A DNA stretch of 60,633 bases from Escherichia phage Dru_SM1: the sequence record PP596835.1; one strand, given 5' to 3'. The position numbers were made by a program, and so were the translations under genes. Below, in pieces: positions 8,805 to 15,239 of this stretch. The notes beneath the pieces were generated by a model. That model saw nothing but the letters and a program-made list of their open reading frames with translations. It made no database searches and was not told where the DNA came from. Within the stretch, counting starts at the first letter, position 1, and each line of letters begins with the position of its first letter.

Positions 8805-9740
8805 ATGGCTACAGGTTCACGTTATTCGTGTTACTACGTCAAAGAAGATGTAAGCAACACTACGCCAGCGAGTGCGGAGTTTACTCCGTTCCGTGTGACC
8901 AGCTCCGGTCTGGACATTAATATTGCAACGCTGGAATCTGAAGAACTGCGCGATGACGCTGAAACTGCGGACTTCCGCCTCGGTGCTCGCAGTGTTGAAG
9001 GTACAGTAACGGGCGAAATGTCCTTCGGCACCTTCGATGATCTTATTGCTGCTGCACTTCGTGGGGAGTGGCAAGACAACGTCCTTAAAGGCGGTATTGT
9101 CCGTCAGTCATTTACTTTCGTAGACTATAACGCAGATCTGCCGTCAGGTAAATATACAATTTATCGCGGTTGCGAAGTTAATAGCATGACTTTCTCATTG
9201 TCTGCGGAAAACATGACCACAGTGGAATTCGGTATTGTTGGTCGCTCGATGGAGATTGCGGAATCGCTCCCATCTGGTGCAACTATCAAAGACCGTACGA
9301 CTACTTCACCGATGGATGGCTTCTCCGGTCGCTTGCTGGAAAACAACAAAGAAATCAGCGTTATTACGGAAATCGGTCTTACCGTTGAAAACGATATCTC
9401 TCCGCGCTTCGTTGTTGGCTCGAAGTTCTCCATTGAACCGTCTGCTGGTCGCCGTGCTGTAACTGGTACAGCTAACGTTTACTTCCTGGATAACAAACTG
9501 CGTAAGAAGTATCTGGATGAAGTGGAAACTTCAATCAAGTTTGATCTGATTGACCCAAGCAATCCGCAACAAAAATACACTGTGGAAATCCCTCGCGTGA
9601 AATTCACTGAAGCTCCGCGTCCTATTGACGGTGAAGGGGATATCATGCTTAATATGGGCTACCGCGGATTGCTGGACCCAACAACCGCAAGTTCCATCAA
9701 AATTACCCGCGTTCTAGCGGCAAATAAGGATAAGAGATGA
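8805..9740 (+). CDS. major tail (tube) protein
   Basis: 311-aa ORF with AGAGGA RBS, immediately upstream of the chaperone/tape-measure pair. Confidence 0.6.
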   Translation: MATGSRYSCYYVKEDVSNTTPASAEFTPFRVTSSGLDINIATLESEELRDDAETADFRLGARSVEGTVTGEMSFGTFDDLIAAALRGEWQDNVLKGGIVRQSFTFVDYNADLPSGKYTIYRGCEVNSMTFSLSAENMTTVEFGIVGRSMEIAESLPSGATIKDRTTTSPMDGFSGRLLENNKEISVITEIGLTVENDISPRFVVGSKFSIEPSAGRRAVTGTANVYFLDNKLRKKYLDEVETSIKFDLIDPSNPQQKYTVEIPRVKFTEAPRPIDGEGDIMLNMGYRGLLDPTTASSIKITRVLAANKDKR

Positions 9741-10144
9741 CCGACACCAAAAAAGCCAAAGTTGCAGTAGCTAAAAGCTTCCGTGATTTTAAAACTGTGA
9801 GCCGGGCAAACGACCCAGCAAACACTAAGCCGATGAATGTGGTTATTCCTGGTGTAGGCGACACGGGCGAAAAACTCTACATTCGTAGCCGTTACTGCAC
9901 AGAGTACCGTGATGCTGAACTGAAAGCACAGCGTCAACTGTTGGCGCTTATGCAGGGTAAAGACGGTGAAGTAACGGATGCTATGAAGGAAGATATCCTT
10001 ACCCGTTCACTGTGTAATCTTGTAGCAGGTTGGACTTTTGACGAGCCACCGACTGTTGACAACGTGTTTGAGTTCTTAACGGAGAACCCAACTGTCCGAG
10101 AAGACCTTAACGTATTTGCCGCTAAAGATAGTAATTTTTTCTAA
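9737..10144 (+). CDS. tail assembly chaperone (G-like)
   Basis: 135-aa acidic ORF between major tail protein and tape measure genes; ends at a slippery heptamer. Confidence 0.65.
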   Translation: MTDTKKAKVAVAKSFRDFKTVSRANDPANTKPMNVVIPGVGDTGEKLYIRSRYCTEYRDAELKAQRQLLALMQGKDGEVTDAMKEDILTRSLCNLVAGWTFDEPPTVDNVFEFLTENPTVREDLNVFAAKDSNFF

Positions 10145-10542
10145 AAGCGCGCAGACAGTTAATTGATAAAAAGATCCTCCAATGGGAACTAAATAGTAAA
10201 GTCCCCGGCGGGGGATCTTCTTTATTATCGCAACTGCAAAAGGTTGAGGAACAGTCTGGTAAGACGCCACCTAAGCTTAAAGAATATCGGGAAAAGGAAA
10301 TACCGGTTTGCTTTGAATACCTGTCTACTTTATTTGATGATATCTACACTGGAGGGGATTTTAGTTATACAGAATTGCACAGCTATCAAGTGACAATGGG
10401 CTTACGTCTTCAACCGTACGAATGCGAAATACTGCGGCAGCTATGGCTTGAAAAGCGCGTGTCAGAAGCTGAACAAAATGCTAAACTCATGGAAAGTCAA
10501 ATGCAAAATCAAAATAAAGGTAGAAGAAAAAGGAGAAGATAA
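9737..10542 (+). CDS. tail assembly chaperone, -1 frameshift fusion product (GT-like)
   Basis: -1 frame from 10141 is open for 133 codons with no stop until TAA at 10540-10542, which overlaps the tape measure ATG; extension has no ATG or RBS of its own. Confidence 0.5.
10135..10141 (+). other. candidate -1 programmed frameshift slippery site T_TTT_TTC
   Basis: heptamer XXXYYYZ at the last two codons of the chaperone gene; the -1 frame opens exactly here after a TAA at 10132-10134. Confidence 0.5.
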
Positions 10543-13500
10543 TGGCCGAAACCGCTTCGCTAGTAATCAGAGTTGACGCGAGAGGGATTAGTACCGCGGA
10601 CTCCATGTTGCGGAACTTAGCGCGTACAGGTGACACAGCGGAGCGGTCTGCTCAACGTGTTACCTCCAGCTATAAAACATTGTCTAACACATCTAACGAA
10701 CTTGCAACTGTCACAAGTCGTTTAGATGCTGCAATTGTAGGAATGATTAGCGTTGACACCATTAATCGTGTTATTTCGCTGTCTGACTCCTGGACCATCC
10801 TTACCAACAAACTTGAACTAGCTCGTATGGGTAATGAAACCGTTGCGGATTCCCAGCAACGTGTGTTTGATATTGCCCAGCGGTCGCGTACAAGCTTGGA
10901 AGCAACTGCAACTCTATATTCCCGTCTCCAGCGTGCAATGAAGAATACTGGTATGACGGGTATGGAGCTTGGACGTATCACTGAAACGATCAACAAAGCG
11001 ATGATTGTTTCCGGTGCAACGTCACATGAAGCAAGCGCTGCCCTTATTCAGTTTTCGCAAGCGATGGTATCCGGTGTTTTGCGCGGGGATGAATTCCGAT
11101 CTGTTGCGGAACAAGCTCCACGCTTAACTCAAATCATGTCCGATTCGTTAGGCGTTACCATTGGACAATTGCGTGAGCTGGCCTACAGCGGCAAGTTAAC
11201 CTCAGATGTGGTTATCAAATCGTTGTCTGGTGCTGCGGATACAATTGATAAAGAATTTAGCCGCACTATGCCAACGTTCAACCAGCAATGGACAGTTGCA
11301 ACAAACAACCTGACTAAGTTTATGGGCGAATCCCAAAAGACTCAAGGTGCGGTCGCTGCATTGGGGCAGACGTTTGTTGCGTTATCCAAAAACTTAGGAA
11401 CGGTTGTAACGGTTGGTTCAGCTTTAGCCACAGTAATTACCGCCCGTATCATTACGGCAATGCTTGCTAAGACTAAAGCGTCTATAGCTGCTGCAAAAGC
11501 ATCTCAGATGGAAGCTGCACAAACGGCGGCAACTACTGCGGTGATGCAAAGCTCTATTGGCGTTACTGCACAGAAAGCGGCTGCGGATCGTGCTGCTTCG
11601 CTTGCAGCGTTACAGGTTGCTCGCGGGTCATTAGCGGTTGCTAAAGGTACGGCAGCGGAAGCAGGCGCACGTCTTGCTCTTATTAACGCTACCCGTGCGC
11701 ATTCTGCGGCAATTATGGCGGACGTACAAGCGCGGCAAGCGCTCAATGCTGCGCTCAATGCAACTGTACCAGCCGCAAGCCGGGCAGCTACAGCAATGAG
11801 CGTGCTGCGCGGTGCTATGGGGTTAATTGGCGGTCCTGTTGGTGTAGCAATGCTGGCAGCGGGTGCAATTTACTCTTATAAGGCATCGCTGGAAGCTGGT
11901 CGTGCGGAAAACAATCAGTTTGCGGATAGTGTTGGTTCTGTACGCGAGAAACTGATGCAGATGACAGAAGCTCAGTTGGCAGCTAACGCAGTTAAAGCTC
12001 GCGCAATTCTCCCCGAACTTGAAGAGCAAATGAAACGGGAACAAACTGCTCTTAAATCTGCAACGGAAACGCAGAAGTTCTATGAAGCACAATTAAAACG
12101 TCGTGCTGCGTCCGGTCGTGATACAGCTAGTGCCGAGAAGAACTTACAAATTGCAACGGATAACGTCAAGCTTGCTGCCGAGCGTGCTGAAGAAGCTCAA
12201 CGCCGTTACAACAATGTCTTAGAAATGACAAGCCCCGCTATCGAGAAGATAATCCCTCTAGCGCGTCAGCTTGCTGCTGATATGAAGGCCGTTCTTAACA
12301 TCAAATCCGGTCCGCTTATTGACGAAAAAGTATTGGATCGCTTTAAAGGTCAACTCGGGGACGTTAACCGTGAGATCGACGTTAACACGGTTAAAGGTGC
12401 TGGTAACGCTCGCCAGGCTGCAATCCTTAGCGGGCTGTATCAAACTCTAGGCAAGGATGCAGACACATATGGAAGTCTAATCCGCAAAGTAGCTATGGGG
12501 CAGGATGTTAGCTCTGAAGCAACAAGCGAGTCCGCAAAAGAACTTGTTAAATATGCTCAAGAGCTAGCGGAAGCTTACGGCAAGAATTATGATCTCGAGG
12601 AAGCGGAGAGGAACCGAACTAAAGCGACAAAAGACGGTATTAAAGCAGAACAACAGAACGCCAAAGTTATTGACGATTTACGCAACAAGCTTAACGAAGT
12701 AACCACAGGGGTTAAGGAAAACGCTAAAGCTAAAGCGCAAGCTGTGGCACTCAATAAGTTAAATGCGTCCGCAACGGCTGCGGAAAAAGCAGAAGTTGTT
12801 AGTCTTGCTGCTGCAATTTACGATGCAGAAGAAGCTCAAAAGAAACTGGACGAGCGTAAGAAGAATCGTAAGTTTGCTCAGGGTCTGTTAGATGAAGGTA
12901 TGACAGACTATGAAAAAATCGCGTACGAGCAAAATACAAAGATTGCAGAGCTTAACGCAAAACAGCGAGCCGATGATTTAGCTTACTATCAGCTTTACGA
13001 AGATGCTAAAACCCAAGTGCTGAAAAAAGCAAGCATGGAAAGGGAAAACCTGGATAAAGTTCTTATGAACCGAATGATATCCTTTTCTCAGGAATCGTTG
13101 GGTATTATACTGTCAGGGCTGGAAGAAGGTGTTAGTAAGCAGAACTTTATTTATAAGGCAATGTTTGCCGCACAGAAAGCAATGCAAATCCCATCAATCC
13201 TTGCTAACACGGAAACCGCGGCATCTGCGGCGCTTGCGTGGGGTACACAGCAAGGCGGTGCTACAATGGGCGCAGCTATGGCTGGGATTGTTAAAGCTAT
13301 GGGTTATGCGTCAGCTGCTACTGTGGGTGGCTTAGCAATCGCTGGCATGGCACACGATGGTATTGATAATGTTCCACGCGAAGGTACATGGTTATTGGAT
13401 AAAGGTGAACGCGTACTTAATGCTCCGTCTAATGACAAGTTAAACCGCTTCCTGGATAGCCAAGCTTCACAACAAGGTGGCGTGAATATGTCTGGTGGTG

Positions 13501-13658
13501 TTAGCATTGTCCAGTATATCACGGTGCAAGGGAATGGCGATGCTGCACTCACGCAAGCCATGCAGCAAGCGGCTCGTGATGGTGCGGAGCAGGGATATAA
13601 TAAAGTTCTTACAGACTTTGCATCCCGAGGAACAATTCGTAGAACTGCAATGGGGTAA
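10542..13658 (+). CDS. tail tape measure protein
   Basis: 1038-aa Ala/Gln-rich helical protein with Gly-rich C-terminal region; position after chaperone genes. Confidence 0.85.
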   Translation: MAETASLVIRVDARGISTADSMLRNLARTGDTAERSAQRVTSSYKTLSNTSNELATVTSRLDAAIVGMISVDTINRVISLSDSWTILTNKLELARMGNETVADSQQRVFDIAQRSRTSLEATATLYSRLQRAMKNTGMTGMELGRITETINKAMIVSGATSHEASAALIQFSQAMVSGVLRGDEFRSVAEQAPRLTQIMSDSLGVTIGQLRELAYSGKLTSDVVIKSLSGAADTIDKEFSRTMPTFNQQWTVATNNLTKFMGESQKTQGAVAALGQTFVALSKNLGTVVTVGSALATVITARIITAMLAKTKASIAAAKASQMEAAQTAATTAVMQSSIGVTAQKAAADRAASLAALQVARGSLAVAKGTAAEAGARLALINATRAHSAAIMADVQARQALNAALNATVPAASRAATAMSVLRGAMGLIGGPVGVAMLAAGAIYSYKASLEAGRAENNQFADSVGSVREKLMQMTEAQLAANAVKARAILPELEEQMKREQTALKSATETQKFYEAQLKRRAASGRDTASAEKNLQIATDNVKLAAERAEEAQRRYNNVLEMTSPAIEKIIPLARQLAADMKAVLNIKSGPLIDEKVLDRFKGQLGDVNREIDVNTVKGAGNARQAAILSGLYQTLGKDADTYGSLIRKVAMGQDVSSEATSESAKELVKYAQELAEAYGKNYDLEEAERNRTKATKDGIKAEQQNAKVIDDLRNKLNEVTTGVKENAKAKAQAVALNKLNASATAAEKAEVVSLAAAIYDAEEAQKKLDERKKNRKFAQGLLDEGMTDYEKIAYEQNTKIAELNAKQRADDLAYYQLYEDAKTQVLKKASMERENLDKVLMNRMISFSQESLGIILSGLEEGVSKQNFIYKAMFAAQKAMQIPSILANTETAASAALAWGTQQGGATMGAAMAGIVKAMGYASAATVGGLAIAGMAHDGIDNVPREGTWLLDKGERVLNAPSNDKLNRFLDSQASQQGGVNMSGGVSIVQYITVQGNGDAALTQAMQQAARDGAEQGYNKVLTDFASRGTIRRTAMG

Positions 13659-13661
13659 TAT

Positions 13662-14246
13662 ATGCTCACTTGGCCCGAAGAGCTTAGACCATCGGAAATG
13701 GAATGGTATCTAGTTTCAAACGCTGTAGAATTTACAAGCCCCTTCAATGGGGCTTCCCAAACTGTGTCATATCCCGGATCTCGTTGGGAAGCGACACTGA
13801 CATTTAGCAACTTAAATGACTGGCAATCCAGAAAGCTTGAATCAACGTTAGCTAAACTTGATGGCAAAGCTGGTCGCATTATGCTTCAGGATTTTGGTCG
13901 CTGGGGTAGGCCTCCAATGGGATTACCTGTGGTTAATGGTGCAAATAACACTGGGACAACTTTATCAACTAAGGGTTGGACTCCTGACCGTAAGGTATTA
14001 TGGGAAGGGGACTATATCGCAGTAAACAATGAATTAAAATTGATAACAGAAGATGCTTGGAGTGATTCTTCTGGTAACGTAATTTTAAACATTGCCCCAA
14101 TGTTAAGAAGCATCCCTCCAAACGGTGTAAAGATTGAAACTCAGAAACCCCAAGGATCTTTCCGTTTAGCCGAAAACACAAATGGAGTTAAACGTCAACC
14201 TGCATTTAATAACTCCTTTACTTTAAAATTCTCGGAGGCGTTCTAA
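13662..14246 (+). CDS. minor tail protein (M-like)
   Basis: 194-aa ORF immediately after tape measure gene; order as in lambda-type tails. Confidence 0.45.
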   Translation: MLTWPEELRPSEMEWYLVSNAVEFTSPFNGASQTVSYPGSRWEATLTFSNLNDWQSRKLESTLAKLDGKAGRIMLQDFGRWGRPPMGLPVVNGANNTGTTLSTKGWTPDRKVLWEGDYIAVNNELKLITEDAWSDSSGNVILNIAPMLRSIPPNGVKIETQKPQGSFRLAENTNGVKRQPAFNNSFTLKFSEAF

Positions 14247-14830
14247 TGTTATTCAGTCCGTTTAGCGATAGCCTTCTTAGCGCAATGGAGCAACCAAACG
14301 TCGCGCTAGTGTTGGCAGCGGAAATAGACTTCCCTTCCGGTATCACCCGCGTGCATACCGGAACAGGAACTGTTATTATCAATGGTCAGACTTTTCTTGG
14401 TGTAGGTACTCTAGGGGATGTTGGATCGGTTACAGAAGAAAACAGCACAAGCTCAAGCACTATGTCCATGGCACTTAGCGGTCTGGATATGAGTCTTGTA
14501 GGGGAGACGTTAAACGAAGAAGTTATTGGCCGCAATGTTATTTGCTATCTTGCGGTTATGAACGATCAAGGCGTTGTCACTGGTGCAAACGTATTATTTG
14601 AAGGGTTTATTACAGATACAGCTTTACAAGCAGGACAACAAAATGCTTTGAGCTATGTTATTGCCAATGTCTTTGAGCGTTGGTCACAAGGTTTACCGGA
14701 TCGCTATACGGATGAAAGTCAACAACGTTTACATCCAGGCGATCGGTTCTTTAGATATGTCGCACAAATGGCTGAACGTTCGATCTTTTGGGGGAGTAAA
14801 AAAGATGCGCCAGGATTCACGTATGAGTAA
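14246..14830 (+). CDS. minor tail protein (L-like)
   Basis: 194-aa ORF in the tail tip block. Confidence 0.45.
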   Translation: MLFSPFSDSLLSAMEQPNVALVLAAEIDFPSGITRVHTGTGTVIINGQTFLGVGTLGDVGSVTEENSTSSSTMSMALSGLDMSLVGETLNEEVIGRNVICYLAVMNDQGVVTGANVLFEGFITDTALQAGQQNALSYVIANVFERWSQGLPDRYTDESQQRLHPGDRFFRYVAQMAERSIFWGSKKDAPGFTYE

Positions 14831-15239
14831 AATGCCAGGATGGCAGACACGTTTATTAACCACAGTAAAGGAGTTGTCATCGACTCCTTTTTCTTGGGGC
14901 GAAAACGATTGCTGTACGTTTGCCGCTAAATGTGTTGATGCACAATACAACACAAATATTTATAATCAGATAGCAGGTAAATATAGCACAGAGCTTGGAA
15001 GCAAGCGATTTTCAATTGAAAAAGTCGGAACAGCTTATCTTCCAACCTTGCTGGATGCTTACCTGAGTGAGCGTGTTGATAAGAACTTTGCACAAAGAGG
15101 AGATGTGGTTACATTTGAGGGAGCATTGGGCTTAACTGCTGGCATATTATGGACGGGATATGTATGGGCTATGGGTCCGAACGGTGTGGAAACATTCCCG
15201 CTTAATAAGATCAAAATTACGGATATTTGGAGGGTCTAA
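14805..15239 (+). CDS. tail assembly protein with NlpC/P60-like motif (K-like)
   Basis: start moved to ATG 14805 (GGGGAG RBS); contains WGENDCCTFAAKCV, resembling the catalytic Cys region of NlpC/P60 domains in K-type tail proteins. Confidence 0.5.
   Translation: MRQDSRMSKMPGWQTRLLTTVKELSSTPFSWGENDCCTFAAKCVDAQYNTNIYNQIAGKYSTELGSKRFSIEKVGTAYLPTLLDAYLSERVDKNFAQRGDVVTFEGALGLTAGILWTGYVWAMGPNGVETFPLNKIKITDIWRV

What the first reader, a model, noticed from the sequence alone, without database searches (positions are those of the whole stretch)
10135..10542. Programmed -1 frameshift in the tail assembly chaperone gene
The chaperone ORF ends with ...AAT TTT TTC TAA. The heptamer T_TTT_TTC (10135-10141) is a canonical XXXYYYZ slippery site, and the -1 frame becomes open exactly there (TAA at 10132-10134 closes it just upstream). 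It then runs 133 codons without a stop to TAA at 10540-10542, which overlaps the tape measure ATG. The extension has no ATG or RBS of its own, so the otherwise empty 400-bp gap is best explained as the T part of a G/GT-type frameshift product.
Basis: partly seen in the sequence, partly recalled or inferred. Interest (0 to 1): 0.5.

Follow-up and report, generated by a model that had tools for sequence, protein, structure and literature searches.

The report
Known tail-chaperone −1 ribosomal frameshift
This is the ordinary, already annotated ribosomal slip that lets a tailed phage make a short and a long version of its tail-assembly helper protein from one gene; the reading is correct but not new.

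Summary
ORF 9737..10144 ends AAT TTT TTC TAA. The −1 frame opens at 10135 and runs 135 sense codons to TAA 10540-10542, which overlaps the tape-measure ATG at 10542. It is the only open frame of six (chance about 5e-5).

The window is a Seuratvirus, about 98% identical to E. coli phage CAjan. GenBank records of phage Seurat (KM236243) and SA80RD already carry this joined CDS. Seurat's slippage note maps to window 10138.

- The extension matches Pfam Phage_TAC_18.
- PHROG 569 covers both halves in order.
- Substitutions in the 80 start-less codons are mostly synonymous in the −1 frame only.
- All 13 relatives examined, from at least five genera, carry T_TTT_TTC (or T_TTT_TTA) in the same phase. 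G homology ends, and T homology starts, exactly at the encoded Phe-Phe.
- All 64 metagenomic relatives have a G-frame ORF overlapped by the −1 frame; 63 of those −1 frames are long. 52 carry a canonical heptamer.

New here:
- The site is conserved more widely than any record states.
- A positionally conserved stem-loop (10164-10227) lies 22 nt past the heptamer, too far for a classical stimulator. Its role is unknown.

No expression data exist.

The parts
8805..9740 (+). Tail tube (major tail) protein gene, the upstream neighbour of the chaperone gene
   Evidence: PF18906 Phage_tube_2, E = 6.9e-42; ORF list
9737..10144 (+). G: tail assembly (tape measure) chaperone, the 0-frame product, 135 aa, 15.2 kDa
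   Evidence: ORF list. PHROG 569 positions 11-126 (E = 2.8e-26) and PHROG 313 'tail assembly chaperone' (3.2e-11). Pfam Phage_TAC_4 is only weak for this protein (E = 0.048), but 6 of 10 homologues match at E up to 0.01.
10132..10134 (+). TAA that closes the −1 frame just 5' of the heptamer
10135..10141 (+). Slippery heptamer T_TTT_TTC. tRNA-Phe in both the P and A sites can re-pair in the −1 frame.
   Evidence: Sequence. Same phase in all 13 relatives examined. In 34 of 64 IMG/VR relatives, with other shift-prone motifs in the rest. U_UU.U_UU.C is listed among efficient E. coli −1 motifs (PMC4066793).
10142..10144 (+). 0-frame TAA directly after the heptamer (a 'shifty stop' arrangement)
   Evidence: The adjacent stop is shared with Nonagvirus JenK1 and Kpn2-P2 but not with Vid5, K4PH164, PSTCR4 or the Pseudomonas phages.
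10141..10542 (+). T segment: −1 frame codons from CTA (10141) to TAA (10540-10542), 133 aa, basic (pI 9.4)
   Evidence: Translation. PF23812 Phage_TAC_18, E = 3e-9. PHROG 569 positions 129-256, E = 3.9e-46. Synonymous against non-synonymous codon changes in the first 80 codons: 15 against 4 (Skure) and 27 against 14 (STP-SP5).
9737..10542 (+). Predicted GT fusion, 268 aa, 30.9 kDa, junction ...AAKDSNFF|LKARRQ...
   Evidence: The identical join is annotated in phage Seurat KM236243 (AIW03876.1) and in SA80RD.
10164..10227 (+). Stem-loop in the T coding region: 17 bp stem, 10164-10180 paired with 10210-10227 (one bulge), starting 22 nt 3' of the heptamer. It contains an alternative terminator-like hairpin at 10201-10216 followed by CTTCTTTATT.
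   Evidence: MFE −27.5 kcal/mol, z = −3.0. Terminator-like pattern. Strongest local structure in the G-T region of most of the 17 lineages tested. More stable than synonymous recodings. Function not established.
10542..13658 (+). Tape measure protein gene; its ATG overlaps the T stop (TAATG)
   Evidence: PF20155 TMP_3, E = 1.5e-58; ORF list

Best explanation
This is a programmed −1 ribosomal frameshift of the lambda G/GT type in the tail-assembly (tape-measure) chaperone gene of a Seuratvirus.

Most ribosomes translate 9737..10141 and terminate at TAA 10142-10144, giving G (135 aa). A minority slip back one base on U_UUU_UUC. tRNA-Phe on UUU (P site) and tRNA-Phe on UUC (A site) re-pair with UUU UUU. 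Those ribosomes then read CUA AAA GCG ... to TAA 10540-10542, giving GT (268 aa, 30.9 kDa).

By analogy with lambda, the G part binds the tape measure protein and the T part recruits the tail tube protein. Neither ends up in the virion.

Shown here:
- the anatomy of the two frames;
- coding constraint in the −1 frame;
- family membership of the T domain;
- conservation of site and phase.

Inferred, not shown:
- that slippage actually occurs;
- its efficiency;
- the roles of G and GT.
For: - Anatomy. The overlap is 10 nt, the heptamer is in phase, and this is the only open frame of six.
- Synteny: tube gene, then G, then T, then tape measure gene.
- T domain: PF23812 Phage_TAC_18, above the gathering score.
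- PHROG 569 aligns G to profile positions 11-126 and T to 129-256, so the family profile is itself a fusion.
- Purifying selection acts only in the −1 frame, including the 80 codons that have no start codon. Skure: 15 synonymous against 4 non-synonymous. STP-SP5: 27 against 14. Other frames: 1/18, 1/19, 5/38, 1/40 (whole region).
- In 13 relatives the heptamer is T_TTT_TTC or T_TTT_TTA in the same phase. These are Seuratvirus, Nonagvirus, Vidquintavirus, Craquatrovirus, Abidjanvirus and unclassified phages, with locus GC roughly 0.45 to 0.6.
- T homology begins at the encoded FF. G homology ends at FF, and the 0-frame tails beyond it (0-31 aa) are unrelated.
- All 64 IMG/VR relatives have a G-frame ORF of at least 128 codons overlapped by the −1 frame; that frame runs 105-248 codons in 63 of them.
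- The same join is annotated in the Seurat and SA80RD records.
- U_UU.U_UU.C is frameshift-prone in E. coli (PMC4066793).
- The class is widely conserved in tailed phages (review PMC5009743).
Against: - There is no protein, ribosome-profiling or reporter evidence for this phage or its genus. The Seurat genome announcement only lists a 'tape measure chaperone'.
- G itself scores below the Pfam threshold for a chaperone family.
- No classical stimulator sits at the usual distance. I saw no Shine-Dalgarno-like sequence upstream (my reading). The nearest strong stem starts 22 nt downstream.
- Many GenBank records of close relatives do not annotate the fusion.
Confidence: 0.9

Rival explanations
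1. The downstream ORF is translated on its own from an internal start codon, as many annotators assumed, giving a small separate protein. No fusion is made.
For: Several GenBank records annotate only a short ORF:
- WildeMaa uses an ATG equivalent to window 10396.
- Skure uses a TTG equivalent to 10330.
- STP-SP5 uses a start equivalent to 10222.
- JenK1, K4PH164 and Vid5 use other starts.
Against: - Those starts all differ. The equivalents of 10222 and 10330 are TTA in the window.
- I saw no Shine-Dalgarno-like sequence before 10375 or 10396 in the upstream bases printed.
- The Pfam match covers extension residues 37-106, which begins well upstream of the first start at residue 81.
- Homology and synonymous-biased substitution begin at the heptamer, 80 codons before any ATG, GTG or TTG.
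- The −1 frame opens exactly at, or a few codons before, the heptamer in nearly every relative.
Confidence: 0.03
2. The frame change is made by RNA polymerase stuttering on the T6 run. One extra U in a fraction of transcripts would then be read by standard translation. The product is the same, with one extra Phe possible.
For: - The site is a homopolymer run: T6 here, T7 in JenK1, Kpn2-P2, K4PH164 and the Pseudomonas phages.
- Transcriptional slippage on T/A runs is an established route to −1 frame products (review PMC5009743).
Against: - Six or seven T is short for efficient slippage by bacterial RNA polymerase (my own knowledge, not tested here).
- The phase of the run relative to the 0 frame is kept in all lineages examined. 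Ribosomal slippage requires that; polymerase slippage does not.
- About 30 of the 64 IMG/VR relatives have only a run of four or five T: A_AAT_TTT, or C_AAT_TTT_A and G_GTT_TTT_A. That fits ribosomal heptamer or tetramer rules but not polymerase stuttering (tetramer rules in PMC4066793).
Confidence: 0.04
3. Same fusion, different step. A single P-site tRNA-Phe slips from UUC to UUU while the A site holds the slowly decoded TAA (a 'shifty stop'), instead of two tRNAs slipping together on the heptamer.
For: - The 0-frame TAA directly follows the heptamer in Seuratvirus, Nonagvirus JenK1 and Kpn2-P2.
- U_UU.Y tetramers alone are shift-prone in E. coli (PMC4066793).
- The most distant relatives keep only a U_UUU tetramer.
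Against: - In Vid5, K4PH164/EC151, PSTCR4, Baskent, PMBT28 and Ab18/Lucjan the stop lies 4 to 94 nt further on. The next 0-frame codon there is a sense codon, yet the full heptamer is kept. An adjacent stop is therefore not required in the family.
- The two routes give the same protein and cannot be separated from sequence.
Confidence: 0.2
4. The frame break is a sequencing error or a pseudogene, and the real gene is one continuous ORF.
For: Homopolymer runs are common sites of sequencing indels (my own knowledge).
Against: - The same two-frame layout occurs in 34 independently sequenced close relatives and in distant genera.
- It also occurs in 64 metagenomic contigs, none of which has a single fused ORF.
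- The 0-frame stop follows at once, and G-only homology ends there.
Confidence: 0.01

Closest known systems
Phage lambda G/GT tail assembly chaperone frameshift, and the class defined by Xu, Hendrix and Duda (Mol Cell 2004), as summarised in PMC5009743
   Same: - Two overlapping ORFs lie between the major tail gene and the tape measure gene.
- The second ORF is in the −1 frame and has no start codon near its 5' end.
[quoted passage not shown]
- The predicted result is an abundant short product and a rare fusion.
- No stimulator lies at the classical distance.
   Different: - The heptamer is U_UUU_UUC, not lambda's G_GGA_AAG (my own knowledge).
- The 0-frame stop abuts the heptamer.
- There is no detectable sequence similarity to lambda G or T. 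The T domain belongs to Pfam Phage_TAC_18.
- The ratio of products and the protein-binding roles are untested here.
Annotated 'tape measure chaperone' with ribosomal slippage in Escherichia phage Seurat (KM236243, AIW03876.1/AIW03877.1) and in SA80RD (OL960575)
   Same: It is the same gene, about 97-98% identical in DNA. The heptamer is the same. Seurat's slippage position, record 10236, maps to window 10138.
   Different: Nothing of substance. Those annotations are also predictions. The nearest relative, CAjan, and many other records leave the fusion unannotated.
Phage P2 E/E+E' tail chaperone frameshift (cited in PMC5009743 as having higher efficiency)
   Same: It is a −1 frameshift on a T-rich heptamer in a tail chaperone gene. 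From memory the P2 site is T_TTT_TTG; I did not check this here.
   Different: P2 is a myovirus, and its proteins were not detected as relatives in any search here. I made no test of similarity in the signals.
dnaX and IS3-family −1 frameshift signals of E. coli
   Same: They use an X_XXY_YYZ heptamer. U_UU.U_UU.C is used by some IS elements (PMC4066793).
   Different: Those signals rely on an upstream Shine-Dalgarno-like element, a hairpin or pseudoknot 5-9 nt downstream, or both. Here I saw no Shine-Dalgarno-like element, and the conserved stem starts 22 nt downstream.

Membership tests
G/GT-type tail assembly chaperone with programmed frameshift (Xu et al. 2004 class) | The gene pair lies between the major tail (tube) gene and the tape measure gene. 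| tested here: met
   Tube gene PF18906 at 8805..9740 and tape measure gene PF20155 at 10542..13658 flank the pair.
G/GT-type tail assembly chaperone with programmed frameshift (Xu et al. 2004 class) | The second ORF overlaps the 3' end of the first in another frame and has no start codon or ribosome binding site at its 5' end. | tested here: met
   The −1 frame is open from 10135. The first ATG, GTG or TTG is at 10375. The overlap is 10 nt.
G/GT-type tail assembly chaperone with programmed frameshift (Xu et al. 2004 class) | A slippery sequence lies in the overlap, in the right phase. | tested here: met
   T_TTT_TTC at 10135-10141.
G/GT-type tail assembly chaperone with programmed frameshift (Xu et al. 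2004 class) | The two-frame arrangement and the shift site are conserved in relatives despite sequence divergence. | tested here: met
   13 of 13 phage relatives examined have the heptamer in phase. All 64 IMG/VR loci have a G-frame ORF overlapped by the −1 frame, which is long in 63; 52 carry a canonical heptamer and 12 only a U_UUU tetramer.
G/GT-type tail assembly chaperone with programmed frameshift (Xu et al. 2004 class) | The proteins belong to tail-assembly-chaperone families. | tested here: met
   - T: PF23812, 37.3 bits against a cut-off of 27.
- G: PHROG 313, E = 3.2e-11, and PHROG 569.
- G against Pfam Phage_TAC_4 is below threshold for this protein (E = 0.048). 6 of 10 homologues match at E up to 0.01, best 9e-5.
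- Fold not confirmed: the AlphaFold single-sequence model had pLDDT 43 and no solved relative was found.
G/GT-type tail assembly chaperone with programmed frameshift (Xu et al. 2004 class) | Both G and GT are made, in a fixed ratio with GT the minor product. | not testable with these tools
   This needs proteomics, western blots or reporter assays. None was found for Seuratvirus.
G/GT-type tail assembly chaperone with programmed frameshift (Xu et al. 2004 class) | Both products are needed for tail assembly and are absent from virions. G binds the tape measure protein and T binds the tube protein. | not testable with these tools
   Genetic and biochemical property, known for lambda (PMC5009743).
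Stimulated bacterial −1 frameshift signals (dnaX / IS3 type) | A downstream hairpin or pseudoknot lies 5-9 nt from the heptamer. | tested here: not met
   In the window the stem starts at 10164, 22 nt after the heptamer, or at 10157 with a weak outer helix. The Pseudomonas-phage relatives Ab18 and Baskent do have hairpins 5-7 nt away.
Stimulated bacterial −1 frameshift signals (dnaX / IS3 type) | An upstream Shine-Dalgarno-like element lies about 10-14 nt 5' of the heptamer. | tested here: not met
   The sequence 5' of the heptamer is gccgctaaagatagtaa, with no GGAGG-like run (my reading).
Rfam RNA families | A match to a curated frameshift element or other RNA family. | tested here: not met
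   Nothing reached a gathering score in the whole window. The only hit was a chance-level one on the − strand (RAGATH-25, 20.4 bits against 49).

The most novel reading that the evidence does not exclude
The positionally conserved stem-loop about 22-35 nt 3' of the U_UUU_UUC site (10164-10227 here) is found in Seuratvirus, Nonagvirus, Vid5-like and K4PH164-like phages, with different sequences but the same place in the T reading frame. It could be a functional cis-element of this frameshift cassette that acts at a non-classical distance. It might set the G:GT ratio, for instance by acting on ribosomes that have just shifted. It might instead stabilise or end the abundant tube-G transcript. Either would be a new variant of the otherwise stimulator-free G/GT signal.
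Probability: 0.25. Interest if true: 0.4.

Novelty: already known. Interest (0 to 1): 0.15.

Why it matters
**Practical value.** Correct annotation matters here. The nearest relative, CAjan, and most of the 34 close GenBank records either miss the fusion or invent unsupported internal starts. RefSeq and PHROG 569 also mislabel these chaperones as 'tail length tape measure protein'.

**Scientific value.** It is modest. The survey shows one chaperone family (Phage_TAC_18 T domain) in which the U_UUU_UUC site, its phase and the domain boundaries are fixed across enterobacterial and Pseudomonas siphoviruses of several genera. The survey also turned up a conserved downstream RNA structure whose role could be tested.

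Nothing here changes the understanding of frameshifting or of tail assembly.

Tried and rejected
- **Large protein collection.** A search with the 268-aa fusion returned no hit at E up to 0.001. I could not ask whether unshifted single-ORF fusions exist there, and I could not build an admissible alignment for structure prediction.
- **AlphaFold2 on G alone.** Mean pLDDT was 43, which is unusable, so I ran no fold search.
- **PDB sequence and profile searches.** These gave only chance matches (Rof, a designed repeat protein, DNMT3B).
- **Rfam and tRNA scan.** Nothing found.
- **Intrinsic terminator.** The 10201-10216 hairpin with a T-rich tail matches the pattern. I rejected it as a general explanation because the equivalent hairpins in JenK1, Kpn2-P2 and K4PH164 have no U tract. 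A weak terminator specific to Seuratvirus is not excluded.
- **Covariation in the stem.** There was none in the Seuratvirus set, where the core stem is invariant, and none in the K4PH164 group. The JenK1/Kpn2-P2 group had three compensatory pairs among four sequences. The structural evidence therefore rests mainly on position-specific stability.
- **The +1 frame.** It is open for only 28 codons across the G stop.
- **Independent initiation, polymerase slippage and sequencing error.** See the rival explanations.

Full report
**1. What is in the sequence**

ORF 9737..10144 (+ strand, 135 aa) ends AGT AAT TTT TTC TAA. TTTTTTC occupies 10135-10141, in X_XXY_YYZ phase with that ORF.

In the −1 frame, TAA at 10132-10134 is followed by 135 sense codons: FFLKARRQ...GRRKRRR. 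These end at TAA 10540-10542. That stop shares its last base with the ATG of the 1038-aa ORF 10542..13658.

The two frames overlap by only 10 nt (10135-10144). A frame change can therefore occur only on this heptamer.

The −1 frame is the only one of six without stops in 10135-10541. The others have 4 to 17 stops. Local composition gives P of about 5e-5 for 135 open codons, and none of 20,000 shuffles was open.

The heptamer is depleted in the window, with 13 copies against 22.4 ± 4.5 expected. This copy is the only one on the + strand in the first 35 kb.

- The fusion is 268 aa and 30.9 kDa, not about 29 kDa.
- There are ATG codons in the extension, at 10396, 10489 and 10501, and a TTG at 10375.
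- The first 80 codons have no ATG, GTG or TTG.

**2. Where the window comes from, and what is already on record**

The region is 95-98% identical to 32 phage records of the genus Seuratvirus (Queuovirinae). The best match is E. coli phage CAjan at 98.1%.

The GenBank record of phage Seurat (KM236243) carries a joined CDS named 'tape measure chaperone' (AIW03876.1). A note on the short CDS reads 'ribosomal slippage (10236)', and that position maps to window 10138. SA80RD has the same annotation.

Other records differ:
- CAjan calls the proteins hypothetical.
- The BASEL phages annotate only a 48-aa ORF from the ATG equivalent to 10396.
- Skure and STP-SP5 use TTG starts at other places.
- RefSeq labels both ORFs 'tail length tape measure protein'.

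The Seurat genome announcement mentions a tape measure chaperone but gives no data (PMC4342423). I found no paper with expression evidence for this genus.

**3. Identity of the parts**

- The upstream gene, 8805..9740, is a tail tube protein (PF18906, E = 6.9e-42).
- The downstream gene is a tape measure protein (PF20155, E = 1.5e-58).
- The extension matches PF23812 Phage_TAC_18 (residues 37-106, 37.3 bits, cut-off 27).
- G matches PHROG 313 'tail assembly chaperone' (E = 3.2e-11).
- G and T match PHROG 569 in order, at profile positions 11-126 and 129-256. That family profile is therefore itself built from fusions.
- G scores only E = 0.048 against Pfam Phage_TAC_4. Six of ten homologues match it at E up to 0.01.

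No solved structure is related by sequence. A single-sequence AlphaFold model was too poor to use (pLDDT 43).

**4. Comparative evidence**

I read the junction in 13 relatives:
- Seurat, Skure and STP-SP5 (Seuratvirus);
- JenK1 (Nonagvirus);
- Vid5 (Vidquintavirus);
- PSTCR4 (Craquatrovirus);
- K4PH164 and EC151;
- Kpn2-P2;
- Baskent_P4_1;
- PMBT28;
- Lucjan and Ab18 (Abidjanvirus).

T-domain identity to the window falls to about 25-30% in the most distant of these.

Every one has T_TTT_TTC, or T_TTT_TTA in K4PH164 and EC151, in the same phase of the upstream ORF. Every one has a −1 frame of 117-243 codons that runs to the tape measure gene.

In a protein alignment the T homology begins at the Phe-Phe encoded by the heptamer. 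The G homology ends at the same Phe-Phe. The 0-frame tails after it are 0 to 31 residues long and unrelated to one another.

This pattern is expected if the functional polypeptides are G-up-to-FF and G-FF-T.

A scan of IMG/VR with the T-domain alignment added 64 loci. All have a G-frame ORF of at least 128 codons overlapped by the −1 frame. In 63 of them that frame is long, 105-248 codons. Their shift sites are:

| Motif in the overlap | Loci |
|---|---|
| TTTTTT[C/A] | 34 |
| A_AAT_TTT as the candidate (17 as the sole heptamer) | 17 |
| A_AAA_AAG | 1 |
| Only a U_UUU tetramer (such as C_AAT_TTT_A or G_GTT_TTT_A) | 12 |

**5. Coding constraint**

I compared the 80 start-less codons with two relatives.

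| Relative | −1 frame, synonymous / non-synonymous | Substitutions at third positions | Other two frames |
|---|---|---|---|
| Skure | 15 / 4 | 19 of 22 | 1/18 and 1/19 |
| STP-SP5 | 27 / 14 | 37 of 56 | 5/38 and 1/40 |

The start codons chosen by other annotators are not conserved. The equivalents of 10222 and 10330 are TTA in the window.

Independent initiation, sequencing error and a chance ORF are therefore very unlikely.

**6. Mechanism**

On U_UUU_UUC, tRNA-Phe (which reads UUU and UUC) can re-pair in both the P and A sites after a −1 shift.

Sharma et al. measured all heptamers in E. coli. They list H_HH.U_UU.Y among the most efficient. U_UU.U_UU.C shows more than 0.1% frameshifting without a stimulator and is under-represented in genes (PMC4066793).

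The junction is ...AAKDSNFF|LKARRQ... .

In Seuratvirus, Nonagvirus and Kpn2-P2 the 0-frame stop directly follows the heptamer. This may add a P-site slip during slow termination. The stop is 4-94 nt away in other lineages, so it is not a family requirement.

Polymerase slippage is disfavoured by the conserved phase and by relatives with only four or five T. Sequence alone cannot exclude it.

The functional model comes from lambda: G binds the tape measure protein, T recruits the tube protein, and the ratio is about 30:1 (PMC5009743). It is not tested here.

**7. A by-product: a conserved downstream RNA structure**

Window 10164-10180 pairs with 10210-10227. This is 17 bp with one bulge, enclosing a small inner hairpin. 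The MFE of 10135-10235 is −27.5 kcal/mol, z = −3.0. The stem starts 22 nt after the heptamer.

Sliding 70-nt windows were run in 17 lineages. Mean z-scores were −2.3 and −2.9 for windows starting 14 and 28 nt from the heptamer, against about 0 elsewhere in the G-T region. In most enterobacterial lineages this is the strongest structure in 600 nt, with z from −3.2 to −7.1.

With the protein sequence held fixed, native codons fold better than synonymous resamples in 9 of 14 lineages (z from −2.0 to −3.5).

The stems differ in sequence between lineages, but they are centred on the same stretch of the T alignment.

Covariation evidence is thin:
- three compensatory pairs in the JenK1/Kpn2-P2 set;
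- none in the K4PH164 set;
- an invariant core stem in Seuratvirus.

Synonymous sites between the window and STP-SP5 are most conserved over 10124-10218, with 12 of 14 codons identical in 10174-10218 against about 50% elsewhere.

The window has A at 10185 where the other Seuratviruses compared have G. This slightly weakens the stem.

In Seuratvirus only, an alternative 6-bp hairpin (10201-10216) followed by CTTCTTTATT fits a terminator pattern.

The Pseudomonas-phage relatives Ab18 and Baskent instead have hairpins 5-7 nt from the heptamer, which is the classical distance.

The spacing in the window is too long for a classical stimulator. In lineages with an adjacent stop, 0-frame ribosomes terminate before reaching the stem, so only shifted ribosomes must unwind it.

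Possible roles are modulation of frameshifting or of T translation, or protection or termination of the abundant tube-G transcript. None is shown.

**8. Verdict**

The feature belongs to a textbook class and is already annotated for this genus, so novelty is 'already known' and interest is low.

My confidence that a GT fusion is made by −1 ribosomal slippage at 10135-10141 is about 0.9. The rest is split mainly between polymerase slippage and independent initiation.

The downstream stem-loop is the only element that might repay an experiment.

Noticed in passing
window 10164-10227; equivalents in L005, L009, L011, L006, L007, L025, L026: A strong stem-loop inside the T coding region starts 22-35 nt 3' of the heptamer. 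It sits at the same place in several genera but has different sequences. It is more stable than shuffles and than synonymous recodings. No Rfam family matches it.
   Followed up: partly
window 10201-10226: An intrinsic-terminator-like hairpin, GTCCCCGGCGGGGGAT followed by CTTCTTTATT, lies inside the T segment. It cannot form at the same time as the long stem. It is conserved in Seuratviruses, but the equivalent hairpins of other genera have no U tract.
   Followed up: partly
window 10185: The window has A where the five other Seuratviruses aligned have G (AAAAAG against AAGAAG). This is a synonymous Lys change that removes one G-C pair from the stem.
   Followed up: no
GenBank/RefSeq records of relatives; PHROG 569: Annotation is inconsistent. 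Seurat and SA80RD carry the joined CDS. Other records leave the ORFs hypothetical or use non-conserved TTG or ATG starts. RefSeq and PHROG 569 name these chaperones 'tail length tape measure protein'.
   Followed up: yes
L050-L057, L062, L066-L068 (IMG/VR); also L047, L077: The most distant T-domain relatives keep only a run of four or five T at the junction: AAT TTT A or GTT TTT A, which reads F-Y in the −1 frame. This suggests slippage on a U_UUU tetramer or an A_AAU_UUU heptamer, not on U6.
   Followed up: partly
L012 (Aeromonas phage AP1, MT713136.1, 239850-241719): Near the end of this 254-kb Straboviridae record there is a partial T-domain homologue and a fragment resembling the Seuratvirus tube protein. 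They are in scrambled order and lie opposite an annotated 'hypothetical protein'. This looks like a chimeric assembly with a Queuovirinae-like phage.
   Followed up: partly
window 14246..14830 and 14655..15239: Two 194-aa ORFs in the distal tail module overlap by 176 nt in the mechanical ORF list. The second probably starts later, near 14820-14830, and not at 14655.
   Followed up: no
L011, L026, L027 (positions 2-20 of alignment A5): In Kpn2-P2-like phages a small hairpin, UCCCUU...AAGGGA, encloses the heptamer itself in its loop. It is not seen in the window.
   Followed up: no
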